Shown here piece after piece: positions 3,041-32,429 of a stretch of DNA of 64,000 nucleotides. How positions within the stretch are numbered: position 1 is the stretch's first letter; each line of letters opens with the position of its first letter. The stretch lies in NCBI RefSeq assembly GCF_045037415.1, contig NZ_CP173438.1; one strand, 5' to 3'. The position numbers and the translations under genes were made by a program. This DNA is from Escherichia coli. Lineage in GTDB: Bacteria; Pseudomonadota; Gammaproteobacteria; Enterobacterales; Enterobacteriaceae. Under the pieces are notes generated by a model. It searched no databases. It had not been told where the DNA came from and worked only from the letters and a program-made list of their open reading frames with translations.

Positions 3041-4318
3041 TTACTTGCTGCTAGCCATTGCGGGGGCGCTATCAGCAGTACGAATTTTTTGGAACAGCAA
3101 AAAGGTAAAGATGATCACCATGCCAAGCGCCGCCATGCCCATTAGCCACATGTTGCGATAGGCTTCTGCAGCGGGCAGGGTGTCTTGCCAGTAGCCGATA
3201 ATCGGGTAAACGAAGACATCCGGCAGGAATCCAATCACCGAACAAATACCTACCGTGGTGCCCATAATGTAAGACGGTGTTCTCGCTTCGCCAGGGCAGG
3301 CCCAGTACAGCCCGCGTGAGGCGTAACAGGTGAATCCCAGTAATAAAATCAAGCCAATCCCCATCGCGACCGATTGCGGGTTAGAGTTCGTGACGAGCAG
3401 GGCTGTCAACGCCAGCAAACCGATGATGGAAAGGATTTGGACCACGCGGGTAGGGGATTTCACTTTACTGTAGGTGGTGATAATGCCGCCAAGTGGGCCG
3501 CACAGCGCGCGGAAGATTTTGTTGATCACAATCCCCATGTAGCTCGCCGCCACCAGCGACATGCCGTACATTTCGGTCAGATAGTTGGTGGAGTAACTCA
3601 GAATGGCGTAGATGGTGAAGACACCAAAAATCACCATGCTGCAATACCAGGTAGTGCTGATGCGCAAAACGGCCAGGATGTCGCTAAGCTGGAATGACTG
3701 TTTTTCTTCGTTATTGGCACTGCGTAGGTTGTTGTTATCGCTAACAAAAAACCAACACAAAATGCCCAGCAGAATGTAAACCACACTATAGATAATAATG
3801 ACCGTTTTCAGGCTGGCGCTGTCATCCGGTGCAAAGCGAGAAAAGACCCACATGGTAAACACCGCCAGCGACATTACACCGACGCCGCGCAGCCCTTCCA
3901 TCCAGCCCATAATTTTCCCTTGCTCGCTATGATCGCCCAGCAACGATGCGGCTTTAATCGACACCGACCACAGCATTAAAATCGTCGTTATCGCAAAGGC
4001 GACCTGAATACAGAGCATTACCCACAGCGGTGGATATGTTGCCATTAACAGACCCAGTAATCCGGTAATGATCATCGCGGAAGTAATCATTTTGCGATGT
4101 GAAAATTTATCGGCAATAACGCCGCTAGGGGCATAGAAAATAATGGCCGCAATACCAAAGGTACTCATTATTAAACCTATCTCGGTATTGCTGAATCCCA
4201 TAAATTTTGCCATGGGAATTTGATAAATATAACGTAAATAAGCCAGGTCGAAACTAACGCCGCCGCTAAAACTAATTATCGCGAGGGTTATCCAACGGCG
4301 ATATGAGTTGTGTTGCAT
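3041..4318 (-). CDS. yqcE: MFS transporter
   Basis: 425-aa ORF, about 12 hydrophobic segments; 26 bp upstream of ygcE, likely co-transcribed. Confidence 0.85.
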   Translation of the reverse strand: MQHNSYRRWITLAIISFSGGVSFDLAYLRYIYQIPMAKFMGFSNTEIGLIMSTFGIAAIIFYAPSGVIADKFSHRKMITSAMIITGLLGLLMATYPPLWVMLCIQVAFAITTILMLWSVSIKAASLLGDHSEQGKIMGWMEGLRGVGVMSLAVFTMWVFSRFAPDDSASLKTVIIIYSVVYILLGILCWFFVSDNNNLRSANNEEKQSFQLSDILAVLRISTTWYCSMVIFGVFTIYAILSYSTNYLTEMYGMSLVAASYMGIVINKIFRALCGPLGGIITTYSKVKSPTRVVQILSIIGLLALTALLVTNSNPQSVAMGIGLILLLGFTCYASRGLYWACPGEARTPSYIMGTTVGICSVIGFLPDVFVYPIIGYWQDTLPAAEAYRNMWLMGMAALGMVIIFTFLLFQKIRTADSAPAMASSK

Positions 4319-4496
4319 ATCGTATTCCCATTTGTAATAGACAAAAAAAAGAGAAAAGTAAGCCGCCCTTTCAGGTGGATTACTTTTCTCAGGTCTCTAG
4401 TAATTGCAATAAGAAATAACATGGAAAGCAGAGGTGTTGTGTGAGAGTAATCACGCTTCTGCTTTTTTAAATTATTTGACAATACGAACATCACAC

Positions 4497-4512
4497 TGTG
4501 ATTACGATCACA
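4497..4512. promoter_or_regulatory. CRP binding site, perfect consensus half-sites TGTGA-N6-TCACA
   Basis: TGTGATTACGATCACA read directly; lies in the divergent yqcE / ygcW promoter region, flanked by TTGACA (4476-4481) and TAAAAT (4535-4540). Confidence 0.5.
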
Positions 4513-4565
4513 TTAGCAGTTATGTCCTTATGCTAAAAATTATCTCCAGTTACCAGAGATAATGA

Positions 4566-4612
4566 GAAAGGTAACTTCCCTCTCGCGGGGGAAGTTACCT
4601 TTCTTTTTTTTT
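4566..4612 (+). terminator. intrinsic terminator / attenuator in the ygcW 5' leader
   Basis: 15-bp perfect stem GAAAGGTAACTTCCC / GGGAAGTTACCTTTC with 8-nt loop, followed by 9 consecutive T; ends 24 nt before the ygcW ATG; no plus-strand gene upstream. Confidence 0.6.
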
Positions 4613-4636
4613 GCCTTACGGAAATTGGAGCTAACT

Positions 4637-5422
4637 ATGTCAATCGAATCTCTCAATGCGTTCTCAATGGATTTTTTCTCCCTGAAAGGTAAAACAGCAA
4701 TTGTTACCGGCGGGAATAGCGGTTTAGGCCAGGCATTTGCCATGGCGTTGGCCAAAGCTGGCGCAAATGTCTTTATTCCTAGTTTCGTCAAAGATAACGG
4801 CGAAACAAAGGAAATGATTGAAAAACAGGGCGTTGAAGTTGATTTTATGCAGGTGGATATCACCGCAGAAGGCGCGCCGCAGAAGATTATCGCTGCCTGC
4901 TGTGAGCGCTTCGGTACCGTCGATATTCTGGTCAATAATGCCGGTATTTGTAAGCTGAATAAGGTGCTGGACTTTGGTCGTGCCGACTGGGACCCGATGA
5001 TTGACGTGAACCTGACCGCCGCATTCGAGTTAAGCTACGAAGCGGCAAAAATTATGATCCCGCAGAAAAGCGGTAAAATCATTAATATCTGTTCATTGTT
5101 CTCTTACTTAGGTGGTCAATGGTCACCTGCTTATTCTGCCACTAAACATGCTCTTGCCGGATTCACCAAAGCCTATTGCGATGAATTAGGCCAATATAAT
5201 ATTCAGGTGAATGGTATTGCTCCTGGTTATTATGCAACCGATATTACGCTGGCGACCCGTAGTAATCCAGAAACTAACCAGCGTGTTCTTGATCATATTC
5301 CGGCAAACCGTTGGGGTGATACTCAGGATTTAATGGGGGCAGCCGTATTCCTCGCAAGTCCGGCATCGAATTATGTCAACGGACATTTATTAGTGGTTGA
5401 TGGCGGTTATTTAGTGCGCTAA
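4637..5422 (+). CDS. ygcW: short-chain dehydrogenase/reductase (SDR), KduD-like
   Basis: 261 aa from the ATG at 4637; TGGNSGLG Rossmann motif; the upstream in-frame extension from 4562 overlaps the terminator hairpin and is rejected. Confidence 0.85.
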   Translation: MSIESLNAFSMDFFSLKGKTAIVTGGNSGLGQAFAMALAKAGANVFIPSFVKDNGETKEMIEKQGVEVDFMQVDITAEGAPQKIIAACCERFGTVDILVNNAGICKLNKVLDFGRADWDPMIDVNLTAAFELSYEAAKIMIPQKSGKIINICSLFSYLGGQWSPAYSATKHALAGFTKAYCDELGQYNIQVNGIAPGYYATDITLATRSNPETNQRVLDHIPANRWGDTQDLMGAAVFLASPASNYVNGHLLVVDGGYLVR

Positions 5423-5491
5423 TTCATAACGGTGGTTTCTGTTTTCTCTTATTAATAACTATTCCATTTTTATTATCAGGAAGGAATTATT

Positions 5492-6946
5492 ATGTCTTTA
5501 TCTCGCGTAGCGATTGTCGACCAGCTAAAGGAAATTGTTGGTGCAGATCGCGTTATTACCGATGAAACGGTATTAAAGAAAAACAGTATTGACCGTTTTC
5601 GTAAATTTCCGGATATTCATGGAATTTATACTTTGCCGATTCCGGCAGCGGTCGTAAAACTCGGTTCCACAGAACAAGTATCCCGTGTGCTGAATTTTAT
5701 GAATGCGCACAAAATTAACGGTGTGCCACGTACCGGTGCTTCCGCCACCGAAGGTGGACTGGAAACCGTTGTGGAAAACTCGGTGGTGCTCGACGGCTCC
5801 GCCATGAATCAAATCATTAATATTGATATTGAGAATATGCAGGCCACGGCGCAATGTGGCGTTCCGCTGGAGGTGCTGGAAAACGCATTGCGCGAAAAAG
5901 GTTACACCACGGGGCATTCTCCGCAGTCAAAGCCGCTGGCGCAGATGGGCGGCTTGGTGGCGACCCGCAGTATCGGGCAGTTCTCCACACTCTACGGCGC
6001 AATCGAAGATATGGTCGTTGGTCTGGAAGCGGTGCTGGCAGATGGCACCGTCACACGCATTAAAAAAGTGCCACGTCGCGCGGCTGGCCCGGACATTCGT
6101 CATATCATCATCGGCAACGAAGGTGCACTGTGCTATATCACTGAAGTCACAGTGAAAATCTTCAAATTTACGCCGGAAAACAATCTCTTCTACGGCTATA
6201 TCCTGGAAGATATGAAAACCGGCTTCAACATCCTGCGTGAAATCATGGTGGAAGGGTATCGTCCGTCGATTGCTCGTTTGTATGATGCTGAAGATGGCAC
6301 CCAACACTTCACCCATTTTGCCGACGGCAAATGCGTGCTGATCTTTATGGCTGAAGGTAACCCTCGCATTGCGAAGGCGACGGGTGAAGGGATTGCTGAA
6401 ATCGTGGCGCGCTACCCGCAGTGCCAGCGCGTGGACAGCAAGCTGATCGAAACCTGGTTTAACAACCTGAACTGGGGACCGGATAAAGTGGCTGCCGAAC
6501 GTGTGCAGATCCTCAAAACCGGCAACATGGGCTTTACCACTGAAGTGTCCGGCTGCTGGAGCTGCATTCACGAAATCTACGAAAGCGTTATTAACCGTAT
6601 TCGTACCGAGTTCCCGCACGCCGACGACATCACCATGCTGGGCGGTCACTCCTCTCATAGCTATCAGAACGGCACCAACATGTACTTCGTCTACGACTAC
6701 AACGTCGTTGACTGTAAGCCGGAAGAGGAAATCGACAAGTACCACAATCCGCTCAACAAAATCATCTGCGAAGAAACCATTCGCCTCGGCGGTTCGATGG
6801 TGCATCACCACGGTATCGGTAAACATCGCGTTCACTGGAGCAAACTGGAACACGGCAGCGCGTGGGCGTTGCTGGAAGGGCTGAAAAAGCAGTTCGATCC
6901 TAATGGCATTATGAACACGGGTACTATCTATCCGATTGAAAAATAA
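5492..6946 (+). CDS. ygcU: FAD-linked oxidase (GlcD / D-lactate dehydrogenase / alkyl-DHAP synthase family)
   Basis: 484-aa ORF with N-terminal FAD-binding PCMH-type domain pattern. Confidence 0.85.
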   Translation: MSLSRVAIVDQLKEIVGADRVITDETVLKKNSIDRFRKFPDIHGIYTLPIPAAVVKLGSTEQVSRVLNFMNAHKINGVPRTGASATEGGLETVVENSVVLDGSAMNQIINIDIENMQATAQCGVPLEVLENALREKGYTTGHSPQSKPLAQMGGLVATRSIGQFSTLYGAIEDMVVGLEAVLADGTVTRIKKVPRRAAGPDIRHIIIGNEGALCYITEVTVKIFKFTPENNLFYGYILEDMKTGFNILREIMVEGYRPSIARLYDAEDGTQHFTHFADGKCVLIFMAEGNPRIAKATGEGIAEIVARYPQCQRVDSKLIETWFNNLNWGPDKVAAERVQILKTGNMGFTTEVSGCWSCIHEIYESVINRIRTEFPHADDITMLGGHSSHSYQNGTNMYFVYDYNVVDCKPEEEIDKYHNPLNKIICEETIRLGGSMVHHHGIGKHRVHWSKLEHGSAWALLEGLKKQFDPNGIMNTGTIYPIEK

Positions 6947-16526: not shown

Positions 16527-16585
16527 TCAGCCCGGTCTTGTAGGCCTGATAAGACGTGTGAGCGTTGCATCAGGCAAGGCAAACA
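16527..16585. repeat. REP element between cysI and cysH
   Basis: TAGGCCTGATAAGACG...GCATCAGGC palindromic unit. Confidence 0.7.
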
Positions 16586-27877: not shown

Positions 27878-27939
27878 ATCGGCGGAACCAGGCTTTTGCT
27901 TGAATGTTCCGTCAAGGGATCACGGGTAGGAGCCACCTT

Positions 27940-28932
27940 ATGAGTCAGAATACGCTGAAAGTTCATGATTTAAATGAAGATGCGGAATTTGATGAGAACG
28001 GAGTTGAGGTTTTTGACGAAAAGGCCTTAGTAGAAGAGGAACCCAGTGATAACGATTTGGCCGAAGAGGAACTGTTATCGCAGGGAGCCACACAGCGTGT
28101 GCTGGACGCGACTCAGCTTTACCTTGGTGAGATTGGTTATTCACCACTGTTAACGGCCGAAGAAGAAGTTTATTTTGCGCGTCGCGCACTGCGTGGAGAT
28201 GTCGCCTCTCGCCGCCGGATGATCGAGAGTAACTTGCGTCTGGTGGTAAAAATTGCCCGCCGTTATGGCAATCGTGGTCTGGCGTTGCTGGACCTGATCG
28301 AAGAGGGCAACCTGGGGCTGATCCGCGCGGTAGAGAAGTTTGACCCGGAACGTGGTTTCCGCTTCTCAACATACGCAACCTGGTGGATTCGCCAGACGAT
28401 CGAACGGGCGATTATGAACCAAACCCGTACTATTCGTTTGCCGATTCACATCGTAAAGGAGCTGAACGTTTACCTGCGAACCGCACGTGAGTTGTCCCAT
28501 AAGCTGGACCACGAACCAAGTGCGGAAGAGATCGCAGAGCAACTGGATAAGCCAGTTGATGACGTCAGCCGTATGCTTCGTCTTAACGAGCGCATTACCT
28601 CGGTAGACACCCCGCTGGGTGGTGATTCCGAAAAAGCATTGCTGGACATCCTGGCCGATGAAAAAGAGAATGGTCCGGAAGATACCACGCAAGATGACGA
28701 TATGAAGCAGAGCATCGTCAAATGGCTGTTCGAGCTGAACGCCAAACAGCGTGAAGTGCTGGCACGTCGATTCGGTTTGCTGGGGTACGAAGCGGCAACA
28801 CTGGAAGATGTAGGTCGTGAAATTGGCCTCACCCGTGAACGTGTTCGCCAGATTCAGGTTGAAGGCCTGCGCCGTTTGCGCGAAATCCTGCAAACGCAGG
28901 GGCTGAATATCGAAGCGCTGTTCCGCGAATAA
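27940..28932 (+). CDS. rpoS: RNA polymerase sigma factor RpoS (sigma-S)
   Basis: 330 aa from the ATG at 27940 ([17 protein letters not shown]...); sigma-70 family regions 2-4; reading frame intact, codon 33 is GAG. Confidence 0.95.
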
Positions 28933-28947
28933 GTAAGCATCTGTCAG

Positions 28948-28985
28948 AAAGGCCAGTCTCAAGCGAGGCTGGCTTTTTTTCTTTT
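28948..28985 (+). terminator. rpoS intrinsic terminator
   Basis: GGCCAGTCTC-AAGC-GAGGCTGGC hairpin followed by TTTTTTTCTTTT. Confidence 0.7.
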
Positions 28986-29102
28986 GGTACATGTTGAACT
29001 GTTATCGGATACAGCGTTAAAACTTTATCTGACTGACCAGGGGACGGCACTTTTTAGATGTAGAAGACCGGATAGACGCGTCAGCATCACATTCGGCAAT
29101 CA

Positions 29103-29654
29103 TCATTTTAAGCGCGCAGTAATTGTCGCCACGCGTTCACCATATTTCACGGCTGTATCCAGATCGCCCGTAGGGATTTGCTCTGCACCCGCATCGGCTG
29201 GAGATTGCACCAGCAAACCGACCGAACCGCCCAGATTGTTTACATCTTCCCTGGTTGACGCAAGCACATTGGCAGGAGCCTGACCTAAACTCACCCACAG
29301 ACCGCCATGCTGTGAAGCCAGCGTTTGCAGATAGATCAGCGTAACTTGTTTATCGCCATTCAGGCTGGCGCTGTTGGTGAAACCCCCGAAGACTTTATCC
29401 TGCCATTTACGTGTAAACCACGCTTTGGAACTGGCATCAGCAAATTTCTTGAATTGCCATGGCGCACCGCCCATATAGGTGGGAGCACCGAAGATAATGG
29501 CATCGGCTGCGTCCAGTTTTTCCCACTCCTGCTCAGTGATATTTCCTTCGTTATCAATCGAAATTAAATCTGCATGGGCGCCTTGTGCCACTTTTTCAGC
29601 AACCAGTTTAGTGTGACCATATCCTGAATAATAAACCACAGCTATGTTTTGCAT
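29103..29654 (-). CDS. flavodoxin-like NAD(P)H:quinone oxidoreductase (WrbA family)
   Basis: 183-aa ORF; N-terminus MQNIAVVYYSGYGHTKLVAEKVAQGA closely parallels the WrbA FMN-binding loop; AT-rich surroundings. Confidence 0.75.
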   Translation of the reverse strand: MQNIAVVYYSGYGHTKLVAEKVAQGAHADLISIDNEGNITEQEWEKLDAADAIIFGAPTYMGGAPWQFKKFADASSKAWFTRKWQDKVFGGFTNSASLNGDKQVTLIYLQTLASQHGGLWVSLGQAPANVLASTREDVNNLGGSVGLLVQSPADAGAEQIPTGDLDTAVKYGERVATITARLK

Positions 29655-29878
29655 ATAAATATCCTTTTTACTAATGAATGATTTTTTGAGGCAGGTTTTA
29701 AAGATGTGGAGTATTATGCCTTGCAGATATTATTTAAACCATCAAATGATGAACATATTTTTTGAATGAGATAAACATAATATTCGAAGAAAAATGAATC
29801 TCGTAACGTAGTAATATCTAAAATAACAGTCTGTTCAGAGATGCTATAAATCAACAACACATTAATAAAGGACTACGT

Positions 29879-30922
29879 ATGCAAGGCATTAAAATATATA
29901 CAATTCTAGCCTCTTCTCTTATATCTGGTAGTGTTTTTGCTCAAACGGAAATTTCGACTTCAAATTCGTCTACAGTTAATGCAAGTTATGTTGAACCTTC
30001 AGCGGAAAAAATAATATCGCCAAGCGATAAACTCAATAACCTTTTTGAAAGAAATATGTCTCAGCCTTATATTTTACAAAAAATTGGCGAGAGAACTTAT
30101 TATGTTCAACGCTATTTTTATTCCACTACGTTTTATGTCGGAGACAAAGGGGTTTTGCTGTTTGATGCTCCGGAGGGTCGCGGTAAATATTTATTACAGG
30201 CAATTCGTGATGTGACTCCATTACCCGTAACAGCGCTGGTTTATTCTCATTACCATGTGGATCACATTGGCGATAGTCCATTTTGGAACGATGAGGCGAA
30301 GAAAGAAGGCGTGAATCTGCGTATTATTGCCAGTAAAGCCACTGCTGAAAAAATGCAATTTATGAACAGTCGCTTACCCGTCGCCACTCAGGTTTTAAGT
30401 AAAAAAGATGACCAGTTTAAATTTGAAAAGCAGACCATTGAATTACACCGATTTGTTAAAGCAGGACATACCGACGACCATTCTGTATGGTTGCTAAAAC
30501 AGGAAAAAGTAGCTCACAGCCCGGATCTCCTGAATCCTGACCAACTGCCGATGATGGGCTTCGCCGTATCGGATACGTTGGTTTACCATGACAGTAATTT
30601 GCGTCAGGTTGAAATGCTTGACTGGAAATATTTTATTGGCGGGCATGGTAATATTGGTTCACACGATGATTTTAAATTTCAACGCCAGTTTCTTAATGAT
30701 CTTCGGGATACGACAATTAAAGTCAGAAAAGAAGAAAGTTTTGGTAAATTTATGAATAAAACGGCAAATAATCATGCTGATTTTGCGCGAGCCCAGCGCG
30801 AAGCAATTATTAAAAAAGTAACTGAAGTATTACGTCCGAAATATGGCCATATGTATGGCTACGACGCATCTATGCCTGCTAATATCGAAATGGCAATAAG
30901 GTTGGTCGGTTCTTATTACTAA
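29879..30922 (+). CDS. secreted metallo-beta-lactamase-fold hydrolase
   Basis: 347-aa ORF; signal peptide (ILASSLISGSVFAQ); HYHVDH zinc-binding motif; markedly AT-rich versus flanking core genes. Confidence 0.75.
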   Translation: MQGIKIYTILASSLISGSVFAQTEISTSNSSTVNASYVEPSAEKIISPSDKLNNLFERNMSQPYILQKIGERTYYVQRYFYSTTFYVGDKGVLLFDAPEGRGKYLLQAIRDVTPLPVTALVYSHYHVDHIGDSPFWNDEAKKEGVNLRIIASKATAEKMQFMNSRLPVATQVLSKKDDQFKFEKQTIELHRFVKAGHTDDHSVWLLKQEKVAHSPDLLNPDQLPMMGFAVSDTLVYHDSNLRQVEMLDWKYFIGGHGNIGSHDDFKFQRQFLNDLRDTTIKVRKEESFGKFMNKTANNHADFARAQREAIIKKVTEVLRPKYGHMYGYDASMPANIEMAIRLVGSYY

Positions 30923-30969
30923 GATAAAATCAACTTGCAAGAGACTGTAATTATATTGCAAAGTGAAAA

Positions 30970-31002
30970 TTAACCTCGGTAGCGAGATATTACCGAGGTT
31001 AA
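30970..31002. terminator. bidirectional hairpin between convergent MBL-fold gene and ygbN
   Basis: Perfect 12-bp inverted repeat TTAACCTCGGTA / TACCGAGGTTAA with 9-nt loop. Confidence 0.5.
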
Positions 31003-31064
31003 TATTGGCATACATTACACCCTTATCAGGCACTTAAACGATACATCATATCTTATCTGGATTA

Positions 31065-32429
31065 TTAGATGACGAGCCATACGCACCAGGTAATTAAGAA
31101 TCCGGTAAAACCGAGAATGGTCGTTAACACTGTCCAGGTTTTCAGACCGTCTGCTACCGACAACCCCAGATATTTGGTCACAATCCAGAACCCTGAGTCA
31201 TTAATATGTGACGCGCCAAGCCCACCAAAGCAGGCTGCCAGCGTCACCAATACGCACTGAATTGGATTCAATCCCATCACCGCTTCTGAGAGTAACCCGC
31301 CGGTTGTCAGGATTGCTACGGTTGCTGACCCCTGCGATGCACGCAGCGCCAGTGAAATAATAAATGCGGCTGGTAACAGAGGCAGGTCAATCATTTGTAA
31401 CATGTTGGCAAGGGCTTTACCGACGCCCGATTCCACCAGCACTTTGCCAAATACCCCTCCAGCACCAGTAACCAAAATCACTACCGCCGCAGTGGGAAGG
31501 GCAGAGCCCATAATGTCGCTGGTGTGTTGTAAGCTCCAGCCGCGACGTAAAGCCAATAACCAGAATGCCAGCACCAGCGCAATCATTAGAGCTACCATTG
31601 GTGAGCCGATCAACTGTAGCGTACCAAGCAGGGGATGCGAAGGCGGCATCAGTGTTGCAGAAACCGTTCCCGCCATGATAATCGCGATAGGAATAACAAT
31701 TAGCGAGGTGACTAACGCGACGCCCGGTGGATTTATTTTATCGCTTAATTTTGTCGCGCCTTCCTCACTGGCCGGAGCCAGTTGCATCTGTTCCAGTACC
31801 TCGACCGACATCGCATATTGGCGCTTATTGATTATTTTCGCTGCAAAGTAGCCAACAATCCCTACGGGAATAGAAATCGCAATACCGATGATGGTTAGCC
31901 AGCCGATGTCTGCGTGGAGTAATCCCGCTGCGGCGACAGGGCCTGGATGCGGCGGTACCGCCACGTGAACAGTGAGCATGATCCCAGCGACAGGCAGGCC
32001 AAATTTGAGTGGTGATATTTTGGCAACCTTGGCAAAACCGTAAATGATTGGCGCAAGAATAATAAAGCCGACATCAAAGAAGACGGGAATGCCGAGGAAG
32101 AACGCTGCCAGAGTCAGCGCAGCGATAGTTCGTTTGTCACCTAACTTGCGACTGAAATAATTAGCCAGTGACTCTGCACCACCAGAGTGTTCGATCATAC
32201 GCCCCAGCATAGCGCCAAGACCAATAATAATAGTGACGGAACCAAGCACACCGCCCATCCCGGCGATCATCACTTTACCCACTTCGCCCGCCGGTATACC
32301 CGCCGCAAGTGCGACTAACAGGCTGACGAGGAGCAGAGCAACGAATGGTTGTACCTTTGCCTTGATGACCAGTAGCAACAGCATGATTACGCCAGCTAAC
32401 GCAATGCATAACAATGTAATTGTGGACAT
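31065..32429 (-). CDS. ygbN: GntP-family acid-sugar permease
   Basis: 454-aa highly hydrophobic ORF. Confidence 0.9.
   Translation of the reverse strand: MSTITLLCIALAGVIMLLLLVIKAKVQPFVALLLVSLLVALAAGIPAGEVGKVMIAGMGGVLGSVTIIIGLGAMLGRMIEHSGGAESLANYFSRKLGDKRTIAALTLAAFFLGIPVFFDVGFIILAPIIYGFAKVAKISPLKFGLPVAGIMLTVHVAVPPHPGPVAAAGLLHADIGWLTIIGIAISIPVGIVGYFAAKIINKRQYAMSVEVLEQMQLAPASEEGATKLSDKINPPGVALVTSLIVIPIAIIMAGTVSATLMPPSHPLLGTLQLIGSPMVALMIALVLAFWLLALRRGWSLQHTSDIMGSALPTAAVVILVTGAGGVFGKVLVESGVGKALANMLQMIDLPLLPAAFIISLALRASQGSATVAILTTGGLLSEAVMGLNPIQCVLVTLAACFGGLGASHINDSGFWIVTKYLGLSVADGLKTWTVLTTILGFTGFLITWCVWLVI

What the first reader, a model, noticed from the sequence alone, without database searches (positions are those of the whole stretch)
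28990..31060. AT-rich two-gene insert next to rpoS: WrbA-like flavoprotein and secreted metallo-beta-lactamase-fold hydrolase
Seen in sequence: the segment between the rpoS terminator and ygbN is visibly more AT-rich than the flanking genes and carries two divergent ORFs, a WrbA-family NAD(P)H:quinone oxidoreductase (29103-29654, minus) and a signal-peptide-bearing MBL-fold hydrolase with HYHVDH motif (29879-30922, plus), separated by an AT-rich divergent promoter region. Established: the rpoS-mutS interval is a known polymorphic hotspot in E. coli. Inference: horizontally acquired pair, possibly a periplasmic hydrolase with a redox partner; function unknown.
Basis: partly seen in the sequence, partly recalled or inferred. 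Interest (0 to 1): 0.5.

Follow-up and report, generated by a model that had tools for sequence, protein, structure and literature searches.

The report
Known B2-specific two-gene segment beside rpoS
This is the long-known 2.1-kb DNA segment that phylogroup-B2 (uropathogenic-type) E. coli carry between rpoS and ygbN; it encodes a cytoplasmic WrbA-like flavoprotein and an exported zinc hydrolase distantly related to the Vibrio cholerae VarG beta-lactamase, and neither has a tested function.

Summary
They lie in a 2.1-kb segment that replaces about 60 bp of K-12 sequence between the rpoS terminator and the last three codons of ygbN. The segment is present in 1,042 of 5,426 complete E. coli genomes (1,039 nearly full length), always once and always chromosomal. 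K-12 lacks it, and O157:H7 carries a different cassette there. It is the "2.1-kb B2 insertion" of Culham & Wood (2000) and "pattern III" (c3302-c3304, o347) of Ewers et al. (2014), so the finding is already known.

Only the hydrolase gene (GC 0.39) and the spacers (0.27-0.34) are AT-rich. The flavoprotein gene (0.50) is not.

- The hydrolase belongs to the VarG/chlorothalonil-dehalogenase-related clade of the metallo-beta-lactamase (MBL) superfamily. It has a complete two-metal ligand set and a Sec signal peptide, but scores far below the VarG family cut-off.
- The same divergent gene pair occurs in Enterobacter sp. kpr-6 at an unrelated locus. In an unidentified enterobacterium it is the only content between mutS and rpoS.
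- Both genes are under strong purifying selection (dN/dS 0.03 and 0.09).

The "redox partner" idea is not supported. The two proteins sit in different compartments, and the pairing is absent from 12 more distant homologous loci. Function remains unknown.

The parts
27940..28932 (+). rpoS (left flank; the mechanical ORF call starts at 27904, the annotated 330-codon gene at 27940)
   Evidence: 99.2% identical to K-12 rpoS
28946..28979 (+). rpoS intrinsic terminator hairpin plus T-tract. The left junction with K-12 lies at about 28973/28974, at the 3' end of the hairpin stem just before the T-tract, and the junction with O157-type sequence at about 28988
   Evidence: Terminator scan; fold -21.8 kcal/mol, z -4.3; junction alignments
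29066..29098 (.). Degenerate REP-like palindrome between the rpoS terminator and the flavoprotein stop codon; possible 3' stabiliser or terminator of the flavoprotein transcript
   Evidence: Read from the sequence; weak fold -13.7 kcal/mol, z -2.0; more than 3 mismatches to the REP consensus that occurs elsewhere in the window
29103..29654 (-). Flavodoxin-fold, WrbA-like flavoprotein gene (183 aa, no signal peptide; c3304-type)
   Evidence: Pfam FMN_red and Flavodoxin_1/2/5; PDB 3D7N 'Flavodoxin, WrbA-like protein' E 1e-72; WrbA equivalogs below cut-off; dN/dS 0.034 against the L028 ortholog
29655..29878 (.). 224-bp, 27% GC divergent spacer that must hold both promoters. It contains a candidate extended -10 (TGCTATAAAT, 29842-29851) and ribosome-binding sites for both genes
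   Evidence: GC; alignment with L028 and Enterobacter spacers shows only patchy conservation, with 74% mean column identity; motif; no sigma-70 consensus promoter found in the spacer
29879..29941 (+). Predicted Sec signal peptide of the hydrolase (residues 1-21, cleavage after VFA)
   Evidence: Read from the sequence; N-terminal hydrophobic segments in most family members; pLDDT below 50 for residues 1-26
29879..30922 (+). MBL-fold binuclear metallo-hydrolase gene (347 aa; o347/c3302). MBL domain about residues 60-260, family-specific helical C-terminal extension 262-346
30966..31006 (.). Strong hairpin between the convergent hydrolase and ygbN genes, probably a bidirectional terminator. It takes the place of the K-12 ygbN terminator hairpin
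   Evidence: Inverted repeat I3; fold -21.8 and -19.7 kcal/mol, z -5.4 and -5.1; minus-strand terminator-like hit
31065..32429 (-). ygbN (o454, GntP-family transporter), right flank. The right junction falls in its last three codons (31065-31073): ..WLVI* here, ..WAVI* in K-12
   Evidence: 97.8% identical to K-12 ygbN

Best explanation
The segment is the known phylogroup-B2-associated 2.1-kb segment of the E. coli rpoS-mutS variable region.

Its core (about 29098-30918) is a self-contained two-gene unit with two parts:
- a cytoplasmic FMN-type flavodoxin-fold protein of the WrbA-like 3D7N subfamily, most likely an NAD(P)H-dependent quinone or electrophile reductase;
- a Sec-exported periplasmic di-zinc hydrolase of the MBL superfamily, from the clade that also holds V. 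cholerae VarG and chlorothalonil dehalogenase.

The genes are read outward from a shared 224-bp, very AT-rich spacer. Both are kept intact by purifying selection.

The most likely reading is two small-molecule detoxification enzymes that work in different compartments and may share regulation through the common spacer. They are not a physical redox pair. The hydrolase probably cleaves a small cyclic amide, ester or aryl-leaving-group xenobiotic in the periplasm. Weak beta-lactam hydrolysis is possible, but it is not an effective resistance determinant.

Shown: position, boundaries, distribution, fold, ligand set, conservation and selection. Inferred: export, cofactors, substrates and co-regulation.
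For: **Position and distribution**
- The segment is in 1,042 of 5,426 complete genomes, once each, on the chromosome, at >=99% identity. Carriers include known B2 strains such as Nissle 1917, ATCC 25922 'Seattle 1946' and APEC O18/O2:K1.
- K-12 has a 93-bp spacer at this site, and O157 has a MarR/decarboxylase cassette.
- The literature describes the 2.1-kb insertion, pattern III (c3302-c3304, o347) and its near-exclusive link to B2 (PMC4209514).

**Hydrolase**
- It hits Pfam PF00753.
- The best NCBIfam family is VarG, aligned over the full length. It is 35% identical to a VarG-like representative.
- All seven metal-ligand columns are present and conserved in 15-19 of 19 family members. They match the VarG ligands H152, H154, D156, H238, D257 and H301 (PMC5595328).
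- The model is confident, and the nearest solved folds are 8d2z, Chd, B1 MBLs and alkylsulfatases.

**Flavoprotein**
- It matches PDB 3D7N at E 1e-72 and E. coli WrbA at 1.8e-9.

**The pair as a unit**
- The same divergent pair occurs in Enterobacter sp. kpr-6 and relatives (75% and 86% aa identity) at an unrelated locus.
- It also occurs in an unidentified enterobacterium between mutS and rpoS.
- Against that organism, dS is 1.23 and 1.29 and dN/dS is 0.034 and 0.088.

**No signs of a mobile element**
- There are no IS elements, integrase genes or flanking repeats.
- There are no defence-system or phage family hits for the hydrolase.
- No close plasmid copies exist.
Against: - No experiment on either protein was found in the searchable literature.
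- Substrate, metal content, export and expression are all inferred.
- The hydrolase falls far below the VarG equivalog cut-off.
- Its structural neighbours have at least four different chemistries (beta-lactamase, dehalogenase, alkylsulfatase, unknown), so the substrate class is open.
- Conservation of the divergent pair in three lineages could mean functional coupling, which I rate as less likely.
- B2 restriction was not re-typed here. It rests on strain names and on PMC4209514.
Confidence: 0.7

Rival explanations
1. Cryptic chromosomal carbapenem-hydrolysing metallo-beta-lactamase. On this reading o347 works like VarG, hydrolysing carbapenems and penicillins in the periplasm, but it is poorly expressed from its AT-rich promoter, which may be silenced by H-NS.
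For: - VarG is the best-scoring curated family, aligned end to end.
- The ligand set is the same as VarG's, including Asp in place of Cys221.
- The B1/B2-type 'GHTxD..VW' motif is present.
- VarG hydrolyses meropenem at 2.6e5 M-1 s-1 (PMC5595328).
Against: - The score is 165 bits against the 750-bit cut-off, with about 35% identity.
- In a survey of 1,827 clinical genomes the 'VarG group' showed no significant association with carbapenem resistance and was commoner in beta-lactam-susceptible genomes (PMC11112869).
- B2 lineages are not intrinsically carbapenem-resistant (own knowledge).
- The gene has no VarR-type LysR neighbour.
Confidence: 0.15
2. The periplasmic hydrolase would release a quinone or hydroquinone-type product from a conjugate, and the cytoplasmic flavoprotein would reduce or detoxify it after uptake. 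The genes would be co-regulated from the shared spacer.
For: - The divergent pair keeps the same architecture in three lineages, although synonymous sites are saturated or nearly so.
- Both genes are under purifying selection.
- Homology between lineages covers only the two genes and their spacer, not the flanks.
Against: - The two proteins are in different compartments.
- No flavoprotein gene lies within 6 kb of the hydrolase homologue in 12 more distant loci.
- In four of those loci a LysR regulator is the neighbour instead.
- A 90%-identical flavoprotein gene stands alone between tesB and amtB.
- The flavoprotein family is widespread in Enterobacterales without the hydrolase.
- The two genes differ in composition, GC3 0.46 against 0.33.
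Confidence: 0.15
3. A rival about origin only. The pair may be an old resident of the mutS-rpoS interval in Enterobacteriaceae that B2 retained and other E. coli lineages lost, rather than a horizontal gain by B2.
For: - An unidentified enterobacterium (mutS 3' end 81% and rpoS 89% nt identical to E. coli) has exactly this pair, and nothing else, between mutS and rpoS.
- The block's divergence (78% nt, dS about 1.25) is of the same order as that of the flanking genes.
- The AT-richness of the hydrolase gene is shared by both lineages, so it is not recent.
- B2, O157 and L028 share the rpoS terminator T-tract, while K-12 deviates, so the K-12 form looks derived.
- IS1-mediated deletion of this region is seen in strain AREA_494.
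Against: - Block dS (about 1.25) is twice that of rpoS (0.57).
- In E. coli the pair lies next to ygbN, not mutS.
- The Enterobacter copy is at an unrelated locus, so the unit has moved at least once.
- The one-genome-per-species scan found the hydrolase in only two other Enterobacterales.
- Culham & Wood proposed acquisition early in B2 (cited in PMC4209514).
Confidence: 0.3

Closest known systems
The 2.1-kb B2- and uropathogen-associated insertion in the rpoS-mutS region (Culham & Wood 2000), also called o454-nlpD 'pattern III' with c3302, c3303, c3304 and o347 (Ewers et al. 2014, PMC4209514)
   Same: [quoted passage not shown]
   Different: Nothing differs; this is that segment. The original paper could not be read here, so the match rests on how PMC4209514 and PMC3074542 describe it.
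VarG, V. cholerae metallo-beta-lactamase (NCBIfam NF033574; PMC5595328)
   Same: - Full-length architecture, with an MBL domain plus a helical C-terminal extension
- N-terminal export signal
- HxHxDH...H...D...H ligand set, with Asp at the Cys221 position
- Best-scoring curated family
   Different: - About 35% identity
- 165 bits against the 750-bit cut-off
- No divergent LysR (VarR) gene and no efflux operon next to it
- Beta-lactamase activity untested
Chlorothalonil hydrolytic dehalogenase Chd (PDB 6uxu) and the B. cenocepacia MBL-superfamily protein 8d2z
   Different: - 15-22% sequence identity
- Chd's chemistry (aryl-chloride hydrolysis) is not implied by the sequence here
- 8d2z has no assigned function
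Subclass B1/B2 metallo-beta-lactamases (CcrA, BcII, VIM, GIM, IND, CphA, Sfh-I)
   Same: - His116/118/196-type site
- 'GHTxD' motif
- Periplasmic location
   Different: - Has His at position 121 and Asp instead of Cys221
- About 90 extra C-terminal residues and about 40 extra N-terminal residues
- Scores 50 bits against the B1 cut-off of 200
WrbA, type IV NAD(P)H:quinone oxidoreductase (TIGR01755, NF002999), and PDB 3D7N 'Flavodoxin, WrbA-like protein'
   Same: - Flavodoxin-like fold
- N-terminal 'YYSxYGH' FMN-phosphate loop
- 'FGxPTxxG' motif
- C-terminal half aligns to WrbA
- 3D7N matches at E 1e-72 over residues 3-180
   Different: - Shorter beta2-alpha2 region
- Below both WrbA equivalog cut-offs
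- No biochemical data for the 3D7N subfamily were found
The alternative cassette at the same site in O157:H7 and EPEC (MarR/SlyA-like regulator plus hydroxyarylic acid decarboxylase subunits B, C, D)
   Same: It occupies the same variable slot immediately downstream of the rpoS terminator and shares the terminator T-tract and a REP-like element.
   Different: The genes are unrelated, and in O157 the ygb genes are missing as well.

Membership tests
E. coli B2 2.1-kb rpoS-mutS insertion (pattern III) | Lies between rpoS and o454/ygbN, about 2.1 kb, replacing the short K-12 spacer | tested here: met
   2,132-bp intergenic region against 93 bp in K-12; junctions at about 28974 and 31073
E. coli B2 2.1-kb rpoS-mutS insertion (pattern III) | Contains o347 (a 347-codon ORF, c3302) and the neighbouring small ORF(s) | tested here: met
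   347-aa and 183-aa ORFs; PMC4209514 wording
E. coli B2 2.1-kb rpoS-mutS insertion (pattern III) | Restricted to phylogroup B2 | tested here: inconclusive
   Present in 19% of complete genomes, including named B2 strains, and absent from K-12 and O157. The phylogroup of the 1,042 carriers was not typed here.
MBL superfamily (Pfam PF00753) | Lactamase_B domain with HxHxDH, a distal His, a bridging Asp and a C-terminal His | tested here: met
   PF00753 E 1.8e-12; H124, H126, D128, H129, H197, D216 and H256 present
VarG family MBL (NCBIfam NF033574, equivalog) | Whole-protein score at or above the curated cut-off (750 bits) | tested here: not met
   165.3 bits. Even a closer VarG-like representative reaches only 510 bits.
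VarG family MBL (NCBIfam NF033574, equivalog) | Full-length architecture and the VarG metal ligands (H152, H154, D156, H238, D257, H301) | tested here: met
   Aligned 30-331 to profile positions 40-358 of 374; the equivalent residues are all present
VarG family MBL (NCBIfam NF033574, equivalog) | Divergent LysR regulator (VarR) and linked efflux genes | tested here: not met
   The divergent neighbour is the flavoprotein gene. LysR neighbours occur only at distant homologues L014 and L019-L021.
VarG family MBL (NCBIfam NF033574, equivalog) | Zinc-dependent hydrolysis of carbapenems and penicillins | not testable with these tools
   Needs MIC and enzyme assays
Subclass B1 metallo-beta-lactamase (NF033088) | Score of at least 200 bits; Zn2 ligands Asp120-Cys221-His263 | tested here: not met
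   50.4 bits; Asp216 occupies the Cys221 position and His129 is present at position 121
WrbA, type IV NAD(P)H:quinone oxidoreductase (TIGR01755 / NF002999) | Score at or above the equivalog cut-offs (132.5 and 141 bits) | tested here: not met
   59.9 and 70 bits; only residues 43-183 align well
WrbA, type IV NAD(P)H:quinone oxidoreductase (TIGR01755 / NF002999) | Flavodoxin-like fold with an FMN-binding N-terminal loop | tested here: met
   Pfam flavodoxin and FMN_red domains; 3D7N and WrbA structures matched; 'YYSGYGHT' aligns with WrbA 'YYSMYGHI'
WrbA, type IV NAD(P)H:quinone oxidoreductase (TIGR01755 / NF002999) | FMN-dependent NAD(P)H:quinone reductase activity; tetramer | not testable with these tools
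   Needs biochemistry
Genomic island or mobile element | Integrase or transposase, flanking direct or inverted repeats, tRNA target | tested here: not met
   No such ORFs, no flanking repeats, never on plasmids
Anti-phage defence or phage-derived module | Match to PADLOC or PHROG families | tested here: not met
   No PADLOC hits for either protein. No PHROG hit for the hydrolase, and only generic flavodoxin hits for the flavoprotein.

The most novel reading that the evidence does not exclude
Every phylogroup-B2 E. coli (ST131, ST73, ST95, Nissle 1917 and others) would carry a conserved, selectively maintained but normally silent VarG-type periplasmic metallo-beta-lactamase. A promoter-up or H-NS-relief mutation could then turn it into a chromosomal carbapenemase. 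In addition, the pair would be an ancestral enterobacterial occupant of the mutS-rpoS interval rather than a B2 acquisition.
Probability: 0.1. Interest if true: 0.6.

Novelty: already known. Interest (0 to 1): 0.22.

Why it matters
The segment itself is textbook-level strain variation. It is already used as a PCR marker for B2/ExPEC strains.

What remains open is why two intact genes have been kept under strong purifying selection in the most clinically important E. coli lineage. A related question is whether the VarG-related hydrolase has any beta-lactamase activity. A cheap cloning and MIC experiment would settle that.

The unidentified enterobacterium carrying only this pair between mutS and rpoS bears on the old gain-versus-loss debate about this hotspot.

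Tried and rejected
- **Mobile element.** I looked for IS elements, integrase genes and flanking repeats and found none.
- **Plasmid-borne relatives of the hydrolase.** Only distant homologues (<=32% identity) turned up, on large replicons of Rhizobiales, Pseudoalteromonas and Streptomyces.
- **Redox-partner coupling by gene neighbourhood.** This is rejected as a general property of the family.
- **A recurrent neighbour of the hydrolase family.** The only recurrent neighbour is a LysR regulator, in 4 of about 11 loci. Other neighbours are unrelated.
- **Promoters.** The sigma-70 scan found none in the spacer. An extended -10-like TGCTATAAAT lies 28 nt upstream of the ATG, but it is not conserved in the orthologous spacers. 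Such motifs are also not enriched in the window, with 16 found against 39 expected. RpoS dependence could therefore not be assessed.
- **Family-wide locus scan.** The first attempt, with the 19-sequence alignment, failed because no stretch was conserved enough. A 5-sequence alignment worked. That scan did not return E. coli itself, so absence from it is not proof of absence in a species.
- **Source organisms of L028 and L007.** Cluster names gave nothing.
- **Culham & Wood 2000.** The paper is not held in the library.
- **Import with diverged flanks.** I checked whether the flanking genes are unusually diverged. They are not: rpoS is 99.2% and ygbN 97.8% identical to K-12.
Full report
**1. What is there**

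Between rpoS (27940-28932, +) and ygbN (31065-32429, -) the window has a 2,132-bp intergenic region. It holds two ORFs at exactly the reported coordinates:
- 29103-29654 on the minus strand (183 aa);
- 29879-30922 on the plus strand (347 aa).

RefSeq annotates them as 'flavodoxin family protein' and 'MBL fold metallo-hydrolase' in genomes that are 99-100% identical over the segment, such as Nissle 1917.

The rpoS terminator hairpin is at 28946-28979 (-21.8 kcal/mol, z -4.3). A second strong hairpin at 30966-31006 lies between the convergent hydrolase and ygbN genes.

**2. Composition**

The 'AT-rich' description is only half right.
- The hydrolase gene has GC 0.389 and GC3 0.330, the lowest of 39 long ORFs in the window.
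- The spacers have GC 0.27 (divergent spacer), 0.34 and 0.45.
- The flavoprotein gene has GC 0.496 and GC3 0.462. That is within about 1 SD of the window's ORF mean (0.534 +/- 0.037).

**3. Boundaries and distribution**

Against K-12, homology ends at the 3' end of the rpoS terminator stem (about 28973) and resumes inside the last three codons of ygbN (31073). About 60 bp of K-12 sequence, including the K-12 ygbN terminator hairpin, is replaced by 2.1 kb, and the ygbN C-terminus changes from ..WAVI to ..WLVI.

B2, O157 and an unrelated enterobacterium share the terminator T-tract TTTTTCTT(T)TG, while K-12 deviates earlier.

There are no flanking direct or inverted repeats and no IS or integrase genes. 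The flanking genes are 97.7-99.2% identical to K-12, which is ordinary intraspecies divergence.

The interior of the segment is found in 1,042 of 5,426 complete E. coli genomes, once each, always chromosomal, and at >=99% identity in 1,040. Of these, 1,039 carry at least 80% of it. K-12 has a 93-bp spacer instead. O157:H7 has a MarR-type regulator plus hydroxyarylic acid decarboxylase genes and lacks the ygb genes.

**4. Already described**

Ewers et al. 2014 (PMC4209514) describe four o454-nlpD patterns. [quoted passage not shown] It was found almost exclusively in B2 strains (251 strains, two exceptions).

They attribute the 2.1-kb insertion to Culham & Wood (J Bacteriol 2000). That paper is not held in the library. 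Ferenci et al. 2011 (PMC3074542) refer to the same size class. The finding is therefore a rediscovery of a known polymorphism.

**5. The hydrolase**

- Pfam gives Lactamase_B.
- The best curated family is NCBIfam NF033574, 'VarG family subclass B1-like metallo-beta-lactamase'. It aligns end to end (residues 30-331 to profile positions 40-358 of 374, E 2e-48), but at 165 bits against a 750-bit cut-off.
- A search of 1.84 billion cluster representatives found a sparse family. There were 1,067 hits at E<=1e-3 and 66 at E<=1e-30, and the closest non-E. coli representative is 58% identical.
- In a 19-member alignment the canonical binuclear ligand set is present in the E. coli protein and conserved in 15-19 of 19 members: H124, H126, D128, H129, H197, D216 and H256.
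- These correspond to the VarG ligands H152, H154, D156, H238, D257 and H301, including Asp in place of the B1 Cys221 (PMC5595328).
- Identity to a VarG-like representative is 35%.
- The N-terminus (MQGIKIYTILASSLISGSVFA|QTE) reads as a Sec signal peptide. Most family members have a hydrophobic N-terminus.
- An AlphaFold2 model is confident (pLDDT 91, pTM 0.87). It shows an MBL core plus a helical C-terminal extension at residues 262-346.
- AFDB neighbours are all uncharacterised.
- A published phylogeny also groups VarG with Chd. It found that this 'VarG group' is not associated with carbapenem resistance in 1,827 clinical genomes and is commoner in susceptible ones (PMC11112869).

In summary, this is a probably active, exported di-zinc hydrolase whose substrate class is open. 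VarG-like beta-lactam hydrolysis is a lead, not a result.

**6. The flavoprotein**

- Pfam hits are flavodoxin and FMN_red families.
- PDB 3D7N ('Flavodoxin, WrbA-like protein') matches at E 1e-72 over residues 3-180. E. coli WrbA matches at 1.8e-9 over the C-terminal two thirds.
- Both WrbA equivalog models score below their cut-offs, at 70 against 141 bits and 60 against 132.5 bits.
- There is no signal peptide.
- The family is widespread in Enterobacterales (Pectobacterium, Mangrovibacter, Cedecea, Kosakonia, Tatumella and others) at 75-86% identity.

It is WrbA-like in fold and probably in chemistry, but it is not WrbA.

**7. Is the pair a unit?**

The same divergent pair exists in Enterobacter sp. 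kpr-6 and related metagenomic contigs. There the hydrolase is 75% and the flavoprotein 86% identical, and the pair sits between TehB-like/DUF1869 genes and an alpha/beta-hydrolase/autotransporter. Both genes have host-like GC there (0.54-0.55).

More striking are metagenomic contigs L028-L030, from an unidentified enterobacterium. They read mutS 3' end, hydrolase (-), flavoprotein (+), rpoS (-), with nothing else in the interval. Its mutS 3' end is 81% and its rpoS 89% identical in DNA to E. coli, and the block is 78% identical.

Homology between lineages covers only the two genes and their spacer. Comparing E. coli with L028:

| Gene | dS | dN/dS |
|---|---|---|
| flavoprotein | 1.23 | 0.034 |
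| hydrolase | 1.29 | 0.088 |
| rpoS | 0.57 | no nonsynonymous change (proteins identical) |

The two genes have therefore diverged together and are both under strong purifying selection. The contrast between an AT-rich hydrolase gene and a normal-GC flavoprotein gene is shared by both lineages.

Against functional coupling:
- None of 12 loci with more distant hydrolase homologues has a flavoprotein gene within 6 kb. Four of them have a LysR regulator instead, as VarG has VarR.
- A 90%-identical flavoprotein gene stands alone between tesB and amtB in another enterobacterium whose flanking genes are about 82% identical to E. coli.
- One protein is periplasmic and the other cytoplasmic.

I therefore rate 'two independent detoxification-type enzymes that travel together and may share regulation' above 'hydrolase with redox partner'.

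**8. Origin**

Horizontal gain early in B2 is the published view. The L028 arrangement, the shared terminator T-tract and an observed IS1-mediated deletion of this region in strain AREA_494 keep ancestral presence with later loss alive, at about 0.3. The Enterobacter copy at an unrelated locus shows that the unit has moved at least once.

**9. Regulation**

Regulation was not resolved.
- The consensus scan found no sigma-70 promoter in the 224-bp spacer.
- A TGCTATAAAT extended -10-like motif lies 28 nt upstream of the hydrolase ATG, but it is not conserved in the orthologous spacers and is not statistically unusual.
- The 27% GC spacer would be a typical H-NS target. This is inference only.

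**10. Verdict**

- The feature is real but already known, and its function is untested.
- The added value here is the placement in the VarG/Chd clade, the intact metal site, the evidence of selection, and the two additional genomic contexts of the pair.

Noticed in passing
L028:1-3019 (also L029, L030; Logan runs SRR33471182, SRR33471207, SRR33471209): An unidentified enterobacterium has only the hydrolase-flavoprotein pair between mutS and rpoS. Its rpoS is 89% and its mutS 3' end 81% nt identical to E. coli. No named genome matched and the protein clusters carry no names.
   Followed up: partly
window 29066-29098: A degenerate REP-like palindrome (ACCGGATAGACGCGTCAGCATCACATTCGGC) lies just downstream of the flavoprotein stop codon. 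O157 has a REP-like element at the same relative place after the rpoS terminator. Better REP copies occur at 16548, 60043 and 60137.
   Followed up: partly
window 31065-31073: The last three codons of ygbN differ between B2 (..WLVI*) and K-12 (..WAVI*), so the polymorphism boundary lies inside the gene. The K-12 ygbN terminator hairpin is replaced by a different hairpin at 30966-31006.
   Followed up: yes
window 28974-28990, compared with L002, L003 and L028: B2, O157 and the L028 organism share the rpoS terminator T-tract (TTTTTCTT(T)TG). K-12 has a shorter, different tract, so the K-12 arrangement looks derived and rpoS termination efficiency might differ between lineages.
   Followed up: no
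L031 (NZ_CP123332.1, strain AREA_494) 4104-5636: An IS1 element has truncated the flavoprotein gene and deleted everything up to a truncated metallophosphoesterase (pphB-like) gene next to mutS. This removed the hydrolase gene and the ygb genes.
   Followed up: yes
L014, L019, L020, L021 (next to distant hydrolase homologues): LysR-family regulators lie adjacent to the hydrolase homologues, divergent in three of the four loci. This echoes the VarR-VarG arrangement of V. cholerae. The E. coli, Enterobacter and L028 clade has the flavoprotein gene in that position instead.
   Followed up: partly
L007-L009, 5001-5552: A flavoprotein gene 90% identical to the E. coli one sits alone between tesB and amtB in another enterobacterium whose flanking genes are about 82% identical to E. 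coli. The flavoprotein gene therefore occurs in several contexts without the hydrolase.
   Followed up: partly
L024, 5001-6062: The closest representative outside the Enterobacteriaceae clade (58% identity) lies just downstream of a same-strand MarR-type regulator gene, inside a homoprotocatechuate-type aromatic catabolism cluster (CHMI, HpcH/HpaI aldolase, aldehyde dehydrogenases). This is a weak hint of an aromatic or xenobiotic context.
   Followed up: no
window 27904-27939: The mechanical ORF call for rpoS starts 36 nt upstream of the annotated start ([12 protein letters not shown] before MSQNTLKV). The annotated 330-codon gene begins at 27940.
   Followed up: yes
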